Of a stretch of 64,000 nt of DNA, positions 10,881 to 34,752 are shown piece after piece. A program made the translations under genes and the position numbers. The notes beneath the pieces are model-generated. The model saw only the letters and a list, made by a program, of their open reading frames with translations. It searched no databases and was not told the DNA's origin. Each line of letters starts with the position of its first letter. The first letter of the stretch is position 1. The DNA is from an uncultured virus (IMG/VR IMGVR_UViG_3300042876_000347) (Duplodnaviria > Heunggongvirae > Uroviricota > Caudoviricetes): the IMG/VR virus record IMGVR_UViG_3300042876_000347; one strand, written 5' to 3'.

Positions 10881-11325
10881 CGGGCAGCGTCGTTTCGAGT
10901 GGAGAATTCTGGGGCAGGTGGTAGGCCCAAGGCTAGCACAAGGGGTGCCAGCTGACCTGGAAGAGGCTATCCTAGCGGTGGAGGAGGGTCGACTTGAGCT
11001 CCCACCTCTGAGGATCACCCCTAGCGGCTCGGTGATTGCCACCGAGAAGGAAAACCTGAAGGTCTGGCAAATCCTGCAGGCTAGCATGGCCTCGCACTTC
11101 AGGGTCGTGGTAGTGGCCATGGACGAGCTGAAGGAGACGGAGAACCTGGACTTCTTGGAGAGGTTGGCTGAGCTGCCAGAGGATCCTCAGACAATCGGTG
11201 CTGCAGTAGCTCAGGCGAGAAGGGCACGCTGGGAAATTCGACCTGTTGAGGAGCCCTTGCCTGACCCTGAAGACGACTTTGGCGAAGAGGAAGACCTTCC
11301 TGAAGAGGAAGAGGAGAACCAGTAA
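10855..11325 (+). CDS. Hypothetical acidic-tailed protein
   Basis: ORF coupled between the amidotransferase and ATP-grasp genes. Confidence 0.7.
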   Translation: MRKLLPAYNGQRRFEWRILGQVVGPRLAQGVPADLEEAILAVEEGRLELPPLRITPSGSVIATEKENLKVWQILQASMASHFRVVVVAMDELKETENLDFLERLAELPEDPQTIGAAVAQARRARWEIRPVEEPLPDPEDDFGEEEDLPEEEEENQ

Positions 11326-12005
11326 TGATCTGTGTTTGGCTTGGCGAAGGCAGGAGCACTAGCTCCGCGAAGGAGCTCGGGAAGTTGATCGCACAGAAGG
11401 AAGCTGAAGGTGGAAGGGAGCTTGAGGGGATAGTCAACTATTCAGGCTCAACGCTCAAGCTTGAGGTTCCTACTGTGCTGAATGCAACCTCTCGGACCAA
11501 CAAGCTAGTGCAACTTGCCACCCTGGAGGATGCAGGAGTAGTGATCCCACAATTCACAGAGACTCAACCTAGAGGGGAGGGCTGGTTCCCCCGTACGCTG
11601 AACCATCAGCAAGGTTTCGACTTTACTCGTAGGCGGATCCCTGTGCCTGACTTCTGGACCAGGAAGTGTCAGCTGGTGGAGGAGTGGCGAATCCATATCT
11701 TCCTCACCAAGAAGGGCAACCTGAAGATCCTGAGGAGTGGTGTCAAGAAGCCACTCCCAGGCGCGCATCCCTGGGTCAGGAGCCATCGCCTTGGCTGGCG
11801 TCTCTCCTACACTGGTGGCGCTAGCGCACCAATGTTGGCTGAGGCTCGGAAGGCAGTTGAGGCTCTCGACCTTGACTTCGCCGCTGTTGACATTGCTCTT
11901 GACAACGAGGGTGTGCCAGTGGTGCTTGAGGTGAACACCTGCCCTGGCTTGGAAGGTGGCACCTTGGACCGCTACGCTGAGGCCATCGTGGAGAGGCTCT
12001 CGTGA
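11325..12005 (+). CDS. ATP-grasp peptide ligase (RimK-like)
   Basis: EEWRIH, LDLDFAAVD and VLEVNTCPGL motifs. Confidence 0.88.
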   Translation: MICVWLGEGRSTSSAKELGKLIAQKEAEGGRELEGIVNYSGSTLKLEVPTVLNATSRTNKLVQLATLEDAGVVIPQFTETQPRGEGWFPRTLNHQQGFDFTRRRIPVPDFWTRKCQLVEEWRIHIFLTKKGNLKILRSGVKKPLPGAHPWVRSHRLGWRLSYTGGASAPMLAEARKAVEALDLDFAAVDIALDNEGVPVVLEVNTCPGLEGGTLDRYAEAIVERLS

Positions 12006-19098: not shown

Positions 19099-19503
19099 GT
19101 GGATATCGACCTTGAGGGAATGAAAGCTGTATTTGACCGTTACGTAGTTCCTCAAGAGGAACATTGGGTCTGGATTGGTGGAATGTCAAGTGGCTATGGA
19201 ATAATGAATTACAAGGGGACGCAATATCCATGTCACCGAGCAGCTTGGCTCCTCTTTAAGGGGCCTATTCCTGAAGGTCTAGAGGTCGACCACCTGTGCC
19301 GTATGCGTATCTGCTGCAATCCTGACCACTTAGAACCAGTTACCCACGCAGAAAACATGAGGAGGAAGCCAAAGAAGCAGGATGGTGTTTGGATGGAGGA
19401 GTTACGTAAGTGGGAATTATTTGCGGACAAGGAGCGTTTAGCAAGAGGGCTCCCTGTGCCAGCGTGGCGTGTAGCCCGTATCAAGGAGGCTGAAACAAAC
19501 TAA
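19099..19503 (+). CDS. HNH endonuclease (HNH_3-like)
   Basis: W.W.G...GYG...HRAAW...GPIP...VDHLC...CCNPDHLEPVT..EN. Confidence 0.92.
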   Translation: MDIDLEGMKAVFDRYVVPQEEHWVWIGGMSSGYGIMNYKGTQYPCHRAAWLLFKGPIPEGLEVDHLCRMRICCNPDHLEPVTHAENMRRKPKKQDGVWMEELRKWELFADKERLARGLPVPAWRVARIKEAETN

Positions 19504-30820: not shown

Positions 30821-31678
30821 GAAGGAAATTAAGACTAAAGCAGGAAGTGTGTGGGTGGAGGAGAATCCGCTTATTGATCTCAGGACTAAGGAGTGGGCGG
30901 AGCGGCTGATAGACGTGGTGCGTGTGGATGAACTCTACGCTTTGATCCAGGAGATTCGTGATGAAGCTAAGGATGAAGTGAATGAAACCTACTTCTGAGG
31001 ACTCCGGCATCCTAGGCTTCACTCACCCCGATGACCCCTCCTTGCTACGCCAGCTTGGAGAGCGTAAGCTAGAACTCGGCCCCCTAGCTGGCCCATCAGT
31101 GTTAGAGGCCTACTTGGATGCCTGCCAGAAGGCCCCGTTTGCTAGTGAGGACACTAAGAGGAAGTGGAGGAAAAGGCTCGGGCTATGATGACTGACGAAG
31201 AAGTTAAAGCATGGCATGAAGCTAATAACGCACGCTTGATCCATGAGGACAACATCAACACTGCCATTAAGCAGCAAAGGGAGCGGTTCCAAAGCACCTA
31301 CGGTGTAGGCCTAATGTTGATCAATGCCCTAACAGAGGACCTACGGCAGCTTGGGTCTGCTTTTCCTTACGATGAGCTCTTAAAAGCACGTTGCCCGCAT
31401 TGTGGGGAGGAGTTACTAGGGTGAAAGGCCGCAACTACACCCATCAGGAAGGTCTTAATATCCTCTCCTGGGGCTACAAGGGGCTTCGTGATGATGAGTG
31501 GGATAAGCAAGATCCTGTGCAGCCACAGAACCAGCCACCTCCTGCTGCTATGCCTAGTCCCGCTATAGAACTTCAGCAATACCTAGCTACGATGAAGCCA
31601 GGGGACAGGGTGCCAGTGGTGGCTACTTCTGTGCAGTATAGTGAATACCTTAGAGGTGGCTATGGCTATGGTTATTAA
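30813..31678 (+). other. Four small hypothetical ORFs
   Basis: Coupled ORFs at 30813-30998, 30982-31188, about 31185-31424 and 31421-31678. Confidence 0.6.
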
Positions 31679-33260
31679 GCCCTCCACTTGTAAGGGCTGC
31701 CCACTTGAAACCCTAGGTTCTGGCTTCGCCCTCACCGATGGTAAGGGGGAGCAGGAGGTGCTAGTTGTCGCAGAAGCGTTGGGCCAAGATGAGGCGAGAG
31801 CCGGTCGCCCTCTTGTCGGGCAGGCAGGAAAGACCTGGGACCGCATTGTCTCTCGAACACATGATCCATTTCTGGGACGCACTCTCCAAAGAGACGACTT
31901 CCTCCACGCAAATGTCCTCAACTGCCAACCCCCAGGAAACATCCTCGTCAAGGCCCCTTATGAGTTCGGAGCAATCAGCCACTGCCGACCCCACCTGGAG
32001 AAAACACTTAGGGATTTCAAGCCGAAGGCGATTGTAACCCTTGGGAACACACCGCTTAGATGGTTTACCGGGCAGTGGGGAGTCGAGAGCCTCAGGGGGT
32101 ACATCTTCGAAACCGAGTGGGGACCAGTCGTCCCCACCTACCACCCGAGTTACATTCAACGGGGTAATTTCCATCTTGCCCGAGTTGTCCAGCTTGATCT
32201 ACTTAAAGCACTTACGGTCGCTAGAAAAGGGGTCAAGCATTTTGTCCTACCTAAAGCGTACGACATCAACCCTATGGCGGGGGACTTCCAGGACTTCATA
32301 ACTAGGTACAAAGCTGCTGGTTGCCCCCCGCTAGCGTTCGACATTGAGACCCCCTACGGCTCAGCTTCCAAGGACGAAGACATGACCTTCGAGCAAGATG
32401 AAAGCTACACAATCCTCATGGTCAGCTTCGCCTTCGAGCCATTCAAGGCAGTCTCGGTACCGTGGATTGAGCCATACATCAGCATGACCAAAGAGCTTTT
32501 GGCTCTCCCTGGCACTAAGCTCTCCTGGAATGGCATCTCCTTTGACATCCCGCGCTTGCAGGCCAATGGCGTAACCTTTGGGGGCGAACTCGTAGATGTC
32601 ATGCTAGCGTGGCATTGGCTGGAGCCCTCGCTGCCAATGGGCCTCAAGTGGGTAGCCCCCTTCTACTGCCCCGATATGCCACCCTGGAAGTTGCAGATGC
32701 ATCAGAACTTCTCCTGGTACAACGCAGCGGACTCAGACGTTTTGCTTAGGGTATTCCTAGGGGTGAGGAAGGAGCTTGAGGAGCAGGGCCGGTGGAAGGT
32801 CTTCGAGAGGCACTTTGTGGAGTTCGGCAAGACTCTACAGAGGATGACCACTCGTGGAGTCACGGTGGATCACGTGGCTAGGAAAGCCGCTAGGGAGCAC
32901 TTTGAAGCTAGGTTCTCGGAGACTGTAGCGCAGGCTCAGGCTCTCGCTCCCAAGGAGGTCTGCCCCTCGGACCCACCGCGTGGCTATAAGAAAACAGAAG
33001 AGCAACTAAAGGAAACTGGCCTATGGCAGGAAGGCTCTATGCGACGTATTCTTGTAGAGCTCTCCCCCAAGGACCTGGAGGTGCGTGAACGTGTCGAAGA
33101 AAGAGCTAAGCGCCGAGCAGAGAAGAAAGCGGAACTTGAAAAGAAGCGCGCAGAGAAAGCGGCAGAAAGAGAAGCTAAGAGAGCAGCTAAGGCCCTCCTC
33201 AAAGCTACTAGAAAGCCTAGAAGTACTACTAAACGAAGAACTAAGGAGGTGGCAAGCTAA
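31662..33260 (+). CDS. DNA polymerase A N-terminal part: family-4 uracil-DNA glycosylase domain, 3'-5' exonuclease and start of the thumb
   Basis: CKGCPL, AEALG, NVLNC and YHPS (UDG); FDIET, WNG..FD and YNAAD (Exo I-III); RM..RGV.VD. Confidence 0.92.
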   Translation: MAMVIKPSTCKGCPLETLGSGFALTDGKGEQEVLVVAEALGQDEARAGRPLVGQAGKTWDRIVSRTHDPFLGRTLQRDDFLHANVLNCQPPGNILVKAPYEFGAISHCRPHLEKTLRDFKPKAIVTLGNTPLRWFTGQWGVESLRGYIFETEWGPVVPTYHPSYIQRGNFHLARVVQLDLLKALTVARKGVKHFVLPKAYDINPMAGDFQDFITRYKAAGCPPLAFDIETPYGSASKDEDMTFEQDESYTILMVSFAFEPFKAVSVPWIEPYISMTKELLALPGTKLSWNGISFDIPRLQANGVTFGGELVDVMLAWHWLEPSLPMGLKWVAPFYCPDMPPWKLQMHQNFSWYNAADSDVLLRVFLGVRKELEEQGRWKVFERHFVEFGKTLQRMTTRGVTVDHVARKAAREHFEARFSETVAQAQALAPKEVCPSDPPRGYKKTEEQLKETGLWQEGSMRRILVELSPKDLEVRERVEERAKRRAEKKAELEKKRAEKAAEREAKRAAKALLKATRKPRSTTKRRTKEVAS

Positions 33261-33436
33261 TGGCTAATCAGTGCCAGCATCAGCATCTTTGCATTGAGTG
33301 TGGTAAACCCTACAAGTGTGACAAGCCAGAGTGTATGACCCTGCCTGCCAACGACTGGCAAGGGGGCTGTGATGTCTGCCTATGGAATCATGGTTGGCGG
33401 CAAGCCAAGGACCGGGTGCTACTTGAAAGCTTCTAA
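33260..33436 (+). CDS. Cys-rich 58-aa protein inside the polymerase split, not in the ORF track
   Basis: TAATG coupling, AAGGAGG SD; HLCIECGKPYKCDK matches HRCHSCAEEWTCDK of 12002-12418. Confidence 0.75.
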   Translation: MANQCQHQHLCIECGKPYKCDKPECMTLPANDWQGGCDVCLWNHGWRQAKDRVLLESF

Positions 33437-33590
33437 ACTCCCTCCAACCCTAGAAGAACTCTTCAACGAGACCAAGGTCTCCCTCGACGTGGAGGCCCTG
33501 AGTAAGGAAGAGGCGAAGGAGAAGTGGGAGAAGACTGGAGACTTCGCGCTCTTGCCCAAGGGGAAGCGTGGCACTATTAAGCGAAGCTAG
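33372..33590 (+). CDS. Small hypothetical protein inside the polymerase split
   Basis: AGGGGG SD before ATG; overlaps both neighbours. Confidence 0.55.
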   Translation: MSAYGIMVGGKPRTGCYLKASKLPPTLEELFNETKVSLDVEALSKEEAKEKWEKTGDFALLPKGKRGTIKRS

Positions 33591-34752
33591 ATGGACTAAG
33601 GTCGCACCCTTTAACCCACTAAGCTCTAAGCAGGCCCTGGCTTACCTGAAGCTAAAGGGTTACAAGATCCCACTTGAGAGGAAGAGTGGGAAGCCTACTG
33701 CGAATGAAGAAGCCCTAGAGAATATCCTAAGGTACAACAAGGATCCCCTCTTAGAGCTCATGCTTGACTGCCGTCACCTCTCTAAGGCAGTCTCCTACTT
33801 GCAAGACACCGCTATCGGTAGGGATGGGAAGTTCCATCCGATCTATAGCTTTAAGCCTGAAACAGGAAGACTCTCCAGCGTCAGGCCAAACATGCAGAAC
33901 GTGCCCAACGGTGGTGTGGATGCTGAACTCGCGAAGGCAGTTCGCTCTTGTATTGTCCCCTCCCAGCCTGGGATGGTCCTTCTAGAGTGTGACTGGAAAG
34001 CCTGTGAAGCCGTACTCACAGGTTGGTTCGCTGGGGACGATGAGTACATTGCTGCCTCGCAGAAGGACTCTCACTCTTGGTTCGGTGGTTACATCCTTCG
34101 TGAGCTAGGCATCATCAAGGATGTTCCCTCGCCTAAGAGCGATGGCTTCATGGACTTCGCACACTGGCTTAAGAAAGAGCACCCGAAGGTTAGGAAAGAG
34201 GCCAAGCAGGTCAACCTAGCCACTGGCTATGGCATGCAGTGGAAGCACCTTTCCGAAGTCTTGCGCTGTAGTGCTGCTCAGGCTAAGCGCTACCTTGCCA
34301 TCAAGGCTGCGATGGCACCTAAGATTGAAGCATGGAAGAACGCCACTTGGCTGGAGGCTCACAGGAAGGGCTTCTTAGAGACACCATTTGGTTATCGCTC
34401 TTACTTCTGGAATGTCCTTCAACCTATCAAGTCTAAGCCTGGGAAGTTTCGCCCGGGTAAGGAAGCCAACGAAGCCCTAGCTTTCCGGCCTCAAAGCACT
34501 GGCGCTGCCATGCTACGAGAGGTCATGCTGGAGATTGAACTCTACAATGGAATTGAATCTGGCGGGCTCTTTAACATGCTAGTGCCCATCCATGATGCTA
34601 TCCTGGTGGAGTGTTTCGAAAAAGATGTCCAAGCCTGTATGGATGTGATTGTTCCTAGCATGGCCCGATCCTGGGTGGAGCTAGGTGGCCTTTCCATCGG
34701 GGCTGACTGCAAGTCTGGCCCGAGGTGGAGTGAAATGGAGGAGGAAGACTAG
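33568..34752 (+). CDS. DNA polymerase A C-terminal part (thumb, fingers, palm)
   Basis: FNPLSSKQ, TGRLSS..PNMQN, motif A DWKACE, motif B RKEAKQVNLATGYG, motif C IHDA. Confidence 0.95.
   Translation: MALLSEARWTKVAPFNPLSSKQALAYLKLKGYKIPLERKSGKPTANEEALENILRYNKDPLLELMLDCRHLSKAVSYLQDTAIGRDGKFHPIYSFKPETGRLSSVRPNMQNVPNGGVDAELAKAVRSCIVPSQPGMVLLECDWKACEAVLTGWFAGDDEYIAASQKDSHSWFGGYILRELGIIKDVPSPKSDGFMDFAHWLKKEHPKVRKEAKQVNLATGYGMQWKHLSEVLRCSAAQAKRYLAIKAAMAPKIEAWKNATWLEAHRKGFLETPFGYRSYFWNVLQPIKSKPGKFRPGKEANEALAFRPQSTGAAMLREVMLEIELYNGIESGGLFNMLVPIHDAILVECFEKDVQACMDVIVPSMARSWVELGGLSIGADCKSGPRWSEMEEED

What the first reader, a model, noticed from the sequence alone, without database searches (positions are those of the whole stretch)
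31662..34752. UDG-fused family A DNA polymerase split in the thumb, with two small genes in the break and bypass-like junction signals
Seen: part 1 (UDG, exonuclease, RM..RGV.VD helix) runs into a long Lys/Arg/Glu-rich tail and stops at GTG GCA AGC TAA (33249-33260). Part 2 resumes about 307 nt later in a different frame (AGC GTG GCA CTA TTA AGC GAA GCT AGA TGG ... FNPLSSKQ). Two ORFs (33260-33436, 33372-33590) fill the gap. The junctions are imperfect direct repeats: GTGGCA..AGCTA-ATGG-CTAA versus GTGGCA..AGCTAGATGGACTAA. The last sense codon AGC recurs in frame in part 2 at 33565 and 33580, after an SD-like AAGGGG. Known: the break maps to the thumb loop where T7 gp5 carries its thioredoxin-binding insert; UDG-PolA fusions occur in SPO1-like phages; split PolA genes occur in phiEco32/LUZ24-type phages; T4 gene 60 bypassing uses a matched codon before a stop and a basic nascent peptide, but over only 50 nt. 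Inference: most likely a two-subunit polymerase whose split loop acquired passenger genes or accessory subunits. A long ribosomal bypass or a splicing event is a less likely alternative.
Basis: partly seen in the sequence, partly recalled or inferred. Interest (0 to 1): 0.75.

Follow-up and report, generated by a model that had tools for sequence, protein, structure and literature searches.

The report
Phage polymerase split at thumb tip
An uncultured phage, like a whole group of its relatives, encodes its only detected DNA-copying enzyme as two separate genes cut at the tip of the enzyme's "thumb", with changeable small genes in the cut, so the enzyme most likely assembles from two proteins rather than by ribosomes jumping the gap.

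Summary
The split is real and inherited. All 120 listed close relatives of part 1 stop at 389-564 aa. Of 91 distinct related loci, 17 are cut at the same thumb-tip insert, in two separate clades (14 and 3; AU p=0.0002). The gap runs 76-1149 nt in all three frames with changing small genes, one an endonuclease VII; part 2 has its own plausible start in 16 of 17. The bypass-like signals are not conserved: matched codon in 2 of 17 (4.4 expected), junction repeat in 0 of 16 relatives, and its first copy overlaps ORF A's ribosome-binding site. In a related strain all 25 listed changes are silent, 18 of them in the two small ORFs, so both look translated. Best reading: gene fission giving a two-chain UDG-exonuclease/polymerase, likely rejoined through the thumb, with passenger genes (about 0.85). 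Assembly is inferred, as co-folding was unavailable. Split phage polymerases are known; I found no paper on a thumb-tip cut in UDG-PolA. This scan noted thumb-split PolAs on other DNA before.

The parts
31662..33260 (+). Part 1, 530-532 aa: family 4 UDG + 3'-5' exonuclease + first thumb helix + N-terminal side of the thumb insert + charged tail
   Evidence: start at 31668 has the better-spaced SD
31662..32246 (+). Family 4 uracil-DNA glycosylase domain (EALG and YHPS motifs; Cys10, 13, 88, 108 are likely 4Fe-4S ligands, inferred from family knowledge)
   Evidence: Pfam PF03167; Foldseek to 1l9g, 4zbx, 1ui1; N84, C88, C108, H161 invariant in 108 sequences
32247..32786 (+). 3'-5' exonuclease domain with intact acidic motifs (D227, E229, D295, Y353, D357)
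   Evidence: all five invariant in 108 sequences; Foldseek matches to Klenow and Pol theta; motif names are recalled
32871..33065 (+). Thumb helix (res 404-428) and the N-terminal side of the thumb insert (res 429-468). It is mostly coil when folded alone; the matching segments are strands in a relative with an intact thumb.
33066..33257 (+). Tail: predicted 48-residue charged single helix (469-516) and a disordered basic end; 25 K/R and 12 D/E in 64 aa
33242..33262 (+).
33260..33436 (+). ORF A, 58 aa, HxHxCxxC...C...PEC...C putative zinc-binding protein of no named family; in the gap in 5 of 17 split loci, all of one subclade
   Evidence: 7 of 7 listed strain differences silent
33423..33590 (+). 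ORF B, 55 aa from TTG 33423 (or 72 aa from ATG 33372); no family; C-terminal end differs in strain X3
   Evidence: 11 of 11 listed differences at 33437-33521 are silent third positions; weak likeness to an ORF in L013
33557..33599 (+). SD-like site and GTG start of part 2 (23 nt inside ORF B), second repeat copy and the two AGC codons; not conserved
   Evidence: 33561-33567 replaced by 52 other letters in X3
33568..34752 (+). Part 2, 394 aa: closing strand of the thumb insert (RW), rest of thumb, palm and fingers, with catalytic motifs A (D142), B (K213, Y221) and C (H342, D343)

Best explanation
The phage's only detected DNA polymerase gene is split at the tip of a thumb insert into two genes, which are likely translated separately and likely reassemble non-covalently into one enzyme, while the small genes in the gap are likely passengers. 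Shown: the cut site, its inheritance across a clade, intact catalytic motifs in both halves, a plausible start codon for part 2, and silent-site conservation of ORFs A and B. Inferred: one polycistronic message is read by stop-restart coupling (part 1, ORF A, ORF B, part 2). The halves would join through thumb helix packing, the exonuclease-palm contact and a small sheet in which part 2's first strand (RW) pairs with part 1's strand. The cut falls where many intact relatives carry a Cys-rich tip, so no core element is lost. The freed C-terminus of part 1 became a basic tail that would lie along the outgoing DNA or bind a replisome partner, as other thumb-tip inserts are thought to. Once the cut existed, the gap gained and lost small genes like any intergenic site. 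A homing endonuclease insertion is a plausible but unproven first cause.
For: 120 of 120 listed part-1 relatives are 389-564 aa although up to 931 aa was searched, and none holds the polymerase TGRL motif. The closest single-chain forms are 34% identical to part 2 or less. 17 of 91 distinct loci are thumb-split, and the window's clade is 14 of 14 split (SH-aLRT 100). Gap 76-1149 nt, frames 0/1/2 in 3/6/8 loci; an in-frame start lies 3-18 codons before the conserved aromatic residue in 16 of 17, and in 8 of 17 it overlaps the upstream gene's stop directly. 25 of 25 listed differences in strain X3 are silent (1 part 1, 7 ORF A, 11 ORF B, 6 part 2). Motifs A, B, C and the exonuclease residues are invariant. 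No other polymerase match in the 68,309-nt genome. Tree distances of the two halves correlate (Spearman 0.84, 15 loci). A relative with an intact thumb (L124) folds with strands at 59-66, 77-82 and 113-121; the first two match part 1 (mostly coil alone) and the third matches part 2's start. Precedents: split gp43A/B co-purify and are active (PMC2988022, passage); exo/pol fission in PolA (PMC10201439 section 32).
Against: No protein or RNA data. Strand pairing is inferred from secondary structure lists, not seen in coordinates. The two half-trees share only 5 of 12 splits (short deep branches, some partial sequences). L091 has no convincing canonical start for part 2. The window's part-2 start has only a moderate SD (-6.4 kcal/mol, 4 nt spacer). 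ORF A is kept in 5 of 5 members of the window's subclade, more than a pure drifter needs. 65 of the 185 hits were not listed, and only 25 places of about 50 differing letters in X3 were listed. The basic tail is not universal: last-60-residue net charge is +2 in L013, -1 in L048 and +3, +4, -2 in the second clade.
Confidence: 0.84

Rival explanations
1. Three-chain enzyme: ORF A is a zinc-binding accessory subunit that replaces the Cys-rich tip of intact relatives in the window's subclade.
For: ORF A directly follows part 1 in 5 of 5 subclade members, with a very strong SD and silent-site conservation. 29 of 55 intact thumbs carry CxxC or CxC in this insert.
Against: Absent from the gap in 12 of 17 split loci. 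Not similar to the intact Cys-rich tips (profile E of 2 or worse where listed). An ORF A-like gene sits about 600 nt upstream of an unsplit polymerase in L114 (E 6.6e-4 among 10,496 segments).
Confidence: 0.1
2. Programmed ribosomal bypass of about 300 nt (T4 gene 60-like) from AGC 33255-33257 to AGC 33565 or 33580 gives one chain.
For: Matched AGC codons and a basic nascent peptide are present in the window; 102 of 112 part-1 tails have net charge of +5 or more.
Against: Matched codon within 15 codons in 2 of 17 loci against 4.4 expected. The gap is coding, with a strong internal ribosome-binding site, whereas gene 60's is a 50-nt non-coding gap (PMC7026636, passages). No excess structure at take-off or in the gap (z +0.7, +1.4, -0.6). 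Stop position, gap length and frame vary. AGC 33565 is lost in strain X3; AGC 33580 could not be checked there.
Confidence: 0.02
3. RNA splicing or split-intein protein trans-splicing removes the tail and gap and restores a single chain.
For: Introns and inteins are common in phage polymerase genes (recalled; L014's part 2 carries an intein-like insertion elsewhere); an endonuclease VII gene lies in L048's gap.
Against: No Rfam match in the window or in 16 split loci. The gap is filled with unrelated coupled ORFs. Pfam finds no intein domain in either half, and neither junction shows Cys-start or His-Asn-end residues by eye.
Confidence: 0.025
4. Broken gene or assembly artefact; or the halves work independently.
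For: None beyond the break itself.
Against: Same cut in 14 genomes whose part 2 is 37-71% identical pairwise (12 compared); catalytic residues kept; silent-only changes; no other polymerase found in the genome.
Confidence: 0.015

Closest known systems
Bipartite T4-like gp43A/gp43B (Aeromonas phages 25, 44RR); PMC2988022, passages read
   Same: A phage replicative polymerase in two genes with a variable insert between them (endonuclease gene or untranslated sequence); the halves co-purify and are active.
   Different: Family B, not family A; no UDG domain; different cut site.
Exo|pol gene fission in S-SBP1-like T7-type PolA, and separate exo and pol genes in LUZ24/phiEco32 phages; PMC10201439 section 32, PMC3517423 passages
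   Same: Family A polymerase split by gene fission, with its own start for the second gene; predicted non-covalent reassembly.
   Different: There the cut lies between domains and the genes overlap. Here it lies inside the polymerase domain at the thumb tip, part 1 carries a UDG and a long basic tail, and whole genes sit in the gap.
MEP401/MEP402 OM43 phages; PMC10580990, passages read
   Same: PolA in two ORFs cut inside the polymerase domain with a small unknown ORF between; shared by most of the clade.
   Different: Zobellviridae-related, no UDG reported; the passages read do not place the cut at the thumb and leave an intron open.
Single-chain UDG-PolA fusions (SPO1, SP-15/YerA41/phiLo, N4-like); PMC10201439 section 31, PMC13697223 passages
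   Same: Family 4 UDG fused ahead of exonuclease and polymerase; thumb-side inserts proposed to grip DNA as T7's thioredoxin module does.
   Different: Those are single chains (the word 'split' does not occur in PMC13697223). No cultured phage exceeds about 28% identity among the 25 rows listed of 419 records.
Aeh1 split nrdA (mobE insertion); PMC3045599 abstract
   Same: An essential enzyme in two pieces with new terminal tails at the cut; a model for an endonuclease-made split.
   Different: Ribonucleotide reductase; tails on both halves are shown essential there. Here only part 1 has a long tail and its role is untested.
T4 gene 60 bypass; PMC7026636 passages
   Same: Matched codon before a stop and a basic upstream peptide, in this window.
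   Different: 50-nt non-coding gap with stem-loops there; a 307-nt coding gap here, with signals not conserved.

Membership tests
Family A DNA polymerase | Motifs A, B, C and Klenow-type fold | tested here: met
   Pfam PF00476 E 4e-39; D142, K213, Y221, H342, D343 invariant in 14 part-2 sequences; an intact-thumb relative matches Klentaq at TM 0.67
UDG-PolA fusion | Family 4 UDG N-terminal to the exonuclease domain | tested here: met
UDG-PolA fusion | UDG, exonuclease and polymerase on one chain | tested here: not met
UDG-PolA fusion | Glycosylase activity | not testable with these tools
   EALG, N84 and YHPS are present; no assay
Genes-in-pieces / bipartite phage polymerase | Two ORFs, each with own start and stop, together covering the whole enzyme, inherited in a clade | tested here: met
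Genes-in-pieces / bipartite phage polymerase | The two products associate and are active | not tested
S-SBP1/LUZ24-type exo|pol split | Cut between exonuclease and polymerase domains | tested here: not met
   the cut is after the first thumb helix
T7-type thioredoxin-binding insert | Insert at the thumb tip | tested here: met
   position relative to Klentaq; TBD at the thumb's tip per PMC10201439
T7-type thioredoxin-binding insert | Homology to the T7 TBD and thioredoxin binding | not tested
   T7 gp5 was not among the rows shown; the wide structural search was busy
T4 gene 60-type bypass | Matched take-off and landing codons, conserved | tested here: not met
   present in the window, but 2 of 17 loci against 4.4 expected
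T4 gene 60-type bypass | Short non-coding gap with take-off stem-loop | tested here: not met
   307-nt gap holding two ORFs with silent-only changes; fold z-scores unremarkable
T4 gene 60-type bypass | Single fused protein product | not testable with these tools
   needs proteomics or ribosome profiling
Group I/II intron | Conserved ribozyme core in the gap | tested here: not met
   no Rfam match at gathering score
Split intein | Intein halves at the end of part 1 and start of part 2 | tested here: not met
   no Pfam intein match; junction residues inspected

The most novel reading that the evidence does not exclude
The fission is adaptive rather than merely tolerated. It turns the UDG-exonuclease chain into a detachable repair and processivity subunit whose 48-residue charged helix and basic end replace the ancestral Cys-rich thumb tip as a DNA tether, and in this subclade ORF A docks on as a third, zinc-binding subunit. 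Two separate lineages were cut at the same tip.
Probability: 0.12. Interest if true: 0.72.

Novelty: new variant of a known kind. Interest (0 to 1): 0.42.

Why it matters
It shows a natural permissive cut site inside the family A polymerase domain, used by two separate lineages, and gives a ready pair of genes for testing how a thumb reassembles from two chains and whether a basic tail can act as a built-in processivity factor. This is useful for split-polymerase engineering. It also matters for annotation: part 1 is labelled only as a uracil-DNA glycosylase in many records. It is not evidence for a new recoding mechanism.

Tried and rejected
Bypass: matched codon, repeat, frame, gap length and RNA structure all failed across relatives. 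Intron: no Rfam hit. Split intein: no signature. Misassembly: rejected. ORF A as a detached piece of the thumb's Cys-rich tip: no similarity found. ORF A context outside the gap: viral scans returned only 2 known loci and nothing for a distant subgroup, and the 30 library relatives come without context, so this stays thin. ESM Atlas gave only hypothetical clusters. Expression: no RNA holder listed, which says nothing either way. The wide structural search was busy. Host: genome contigs gave one full-length, unsplit, distant locus (L247) and no split one among 45, so the host is unknown. Literature searches found no paper describing a thumb-tip split in a UDG-PolA; the library lacks most subscription papers and no supplements were read. 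PMC10354031 (passages) was irrelevant. Search of earlier findings by sequence returned nothing.
Full report
Observation. The sequence is as described. Part 1 runs from ATG 31662 (or 31668) to TAA 33260. It holds a family 4 UDG (Pfam E 9e-19; Foldseek TM 0.79 to T. maritima UDG), an exonuclease domain whose five acidic or aromatic catalytic positions are invariant in 108 aligned sequences, the first thumb helix and a tail. Part 2 starts at GTG 33568, 307 nt later and in another frame, and carries motifs A, B and C. It is the only polymerase match in the 68,309-nt genome, a tailed phage with portal, major head and tail fibre genes. The host is unknown, and none of the 25 listed phage records exceeds 28% identity to part 2.

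The split is inherited. A search with part 1 allowed 292-931 aa and found 185 proteins; the 120 listed are 389-564 aa and none contains the polymerase TGRL motif. The other 65 were not shown. A search with part 2 among 691-2000 aa proteins gave one hit at 46% that is itself a split part 2 with an intein-like insertion (judged by eye; Pfam found no intein model), then single-chain UDG-PolA proteins at 34% or less. From the scans I kept loci matching both halves with a summed profile score of at least 330 and removed duplicates, leaving 91. Loci cut by a contig end before one half, and weaker ones, were dropped. Of the 91, 17 are cut at the thumb tip, 58 are single ORFs and 16 are cut elsewhere. 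The last 16 were not examined and may include introns or errors. The window lies in a clade of 14 in which all 14 are thumb-split (SH-aLRT 100). Three more (L021, L023, L028) form a second clade nested among unsplit genes. On 49 of the 91 rows, holding all 17 together is rejected (AU p=0.0002, quick tree, LG+G4). The groups were named after a first tree had been seen and no root was fixed, so two fissions is the simplest reading, not the only one. Contigs of X1 and X2 span the region in one piece but may be its source; X3, a strain about 90% identical from another study, also shows the arrangement in pieces.

Where the cut falls. Against Klentaq, the family has about 60 extra profile positions between chain residues 181 and 187, just before FNLNS. 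That is the thumb tip, where T7 has its thioredoxin-binding insert and phiKMV-like enzymes an unrelated beta insert (PMC10201439, passages and section 31). In a relative with an intact thumb (L124, folded from the thumb to the end, mean pLDDT 94) the insert has strands at 59-66, 77-82 and 113-121 around a Cys-rich tip. 29 of 55 intact thumbs have CxxC or CxC in this insert. The first strands correspond to part 1 residues about 432-467 (one search aligns up to the start of the second strand; the rest is matched by eye), which are mostly coil when part 1 is folded alone. The last corresponds to part 2's opening RW segment. So the cut removes the tip and leaves the strands on different chains. 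After the cut, part 1 continues as a predicted 48-residue charged helix and a disordered basic end. Of 112 tails where the anchor motif was found, 102 have net charge +5 or more (median +9), against 6 of 55 intact tips (median +2). The windows differ, so the comparison is rough, and several split loci, including the second clade, lack a strongly basic end.

What is in the gap. Across the 17 loci the distance from part 1's stop to the conserved aromatic residue of part 2 is 76-1149 nt, in frames 0, 1 and 2 in 3, 6 and 8 loci. The content changes: ORF A in 5 loci of one subclade, a second Cys-containing ORF in L002 and L011, another shared by L040 and L092, another shared by the second clade, and an endonuclease VII in L048 (Pfam E 1e-22). 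Part 2 has an in-frame ATG, GTG or TTG 3-18 codons before that residue in 16 of 17; L091 has only a doubtful TTG. In 8 loci the start overlaps the upstream stop directly. In the window, ORF A has the strongest ribosome-binding site of the 21 starts scored (-13.2 kcal/mol) and a TAATG overlap. In X3 all 25 listed differences are silent in the annotated frames: 7 in ORF A and 11 consecutive third positions in ORF B. Differences near contig ends are not listed, so about half were not seen. Both ORFs therefore look like translated genes. An ORF A-like gene lies upstream of an unsplit polymerase in L114 (E 6.6e-4), ORF A has 30 relatives in the 50% library without context, and it does not resemble the intact Cys-rich tips. 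This favours passengers. Against that, ORF A is kept in all 5 members of its subclade.

The bypass-like signals. The last sense codon recurs in frame within 15 codons of part 2's aromatic residue in 2 of 17 loci, with 4.4 expected from base composition. The repeat scores 18, reached by 136 of 19,944 random pairs and by 8 of 748 windows for the same 26-mer; none of 16 relatives reaches it (best 15). Its first copy overlaps ORF A's ribosome-binding site and the stop-start overlap. In X3 the seven letters 33561-33567, with AGC 33565 and most of the SD-like run, are replaced by 52 others and ORF B stops earlier; AGC 33580 could not be checked. Folding energies at the junctions and in the gap are ordinary. 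Gene 60 needs a 50-nt non-coding gap, matched codons and stem-loops (PMC7026636, passages). No Rfam family matches the window or 16 split loci, and there is no intein signature at the junctions.

How it most likely works. One message is read gene by gene. Part 1 and part 2 would fold and join through the thumb helices, the small sheet and the exonuclease-palm contact, giving a UDG-exonuclease-polymerase like the single-chain fusions (PMC13697223, passages). The basic tail would sit by the outgoing duplex. I put this at 0.84, an accessory role for ORF A at 0.10, bypass at 0.02, splicing at 0.025 and a dead or artefactual gene at 0.015. The origin is open. Endonuclease VII genes lie in L048's gap and beside other cuts in L098 and L178, which fits an insertion of the kind that split Aeh1 nrdA and perhaps gp43 (PMC2988022 passage; PMC3045599 abstract), but one locus in 17 does not show it.

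Comparison and novelty. Split phage polymerases are known: gp43A/B (active as two chains), exo|pol fission in S-SBP1-like PolA, reported in 2023 as the first in family A (PMC10201439), separate exo and pol genes in LUZ24 and phiEco32 phages (PMC3517423), and PolA in two ORFs around a small unknown ORF in OM43 phages (PMC10580990). Seven searches found no paper on a thumb-tip cut in a UDG-PolA, with the limits of an open-access library and no supplements read. Earlier unchecked notes of this scan describe thumb-split PolAs in other genomes; I had reached my reading before seeing them and did not check their loci. Verdict: a real, clade-wide, probably twice-arisen fission at a new site, a new variant of a known kind, interest 0.42.

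Noticed in passing
L014:5133-5366: The single gap ORF resembles the tip and following helix of intact thumbs (33% over 58 aa to L140/L143; 34.7 bits against a best of 24.6 in 300 shuffles). It could be a decayed duplicate of the thumb tip, or chance; the family profile did not pick it up (E 0.34).
   Followed up: partly
L039, L045, L123, L130, L140, L143, L097; L058, L061; L033, L101, L108; L098, L099, L178, L213: The same UDG-PolA family is also cut at other sites: between exonuclease and thumb, after the UDG, and at two places in the polymerase domain. Endonuclease VII genes lie at the cuts in L098 and L178. Introns or errors were not excluded.
   Followed up: partly
window:34204-34230: Motif B has Leu at the position matching Klenow F762; split relatives show Leu, His, Tyr or Asn there. 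The link of this residue to speed and lifestyle is recalled, not checked.
   Followed up: no
L048:1-1252: Part 1 appears in two frames (1-492, 449-1252), a frameshift or sequencing error in addition to the thumb split.
   Followed up: no
L016:5156-5230: Shortest gap (about 50 nt to the start of part 2), still spanned by a 24-codon ORF overlapping both neighbours.
   Followed up: partly
L091:5592-5680: Part 2 has no convincing ATG/GTG/TTG start; an ATC follows a GGAGGA site, so a non-canonical start is possible.
   Followed up: no
window:16026-30820: Nucleotide-metabolism and possible modification genes upstream: dCMP deaminase, thymidylate synthase, deoxyribonucleotidase-like, glycosyltransferase-like, dATP/dGTP diphosphohydrolase, a stand-alone exonuclease and a methyltransferase-like gene. 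The phage may modify its DNA.
   Followed up: no
window:17950-18885 (minus strand): A helicase/primase-type P-loop gene lies on the opposite strand within the rightward gene run.
   Followed up: no
window:6818-7912 and 11325-12005: COOH-NH2 ligase and RimK-like (S6 glutaminyl transferase) genes.
   Followed up: no
window:35516-42061 (minus strand): 2181-aa protein with no PHROG match, next to tail genes; possibly an ejection protein.
   Followed up: no
window:54626-55009 (minus strand) and 19099-19503: Free-standing endonuclease VII and HNH endonuclease genes; the former is 43% identical to the one in L048's gap.
   Followed up: partly
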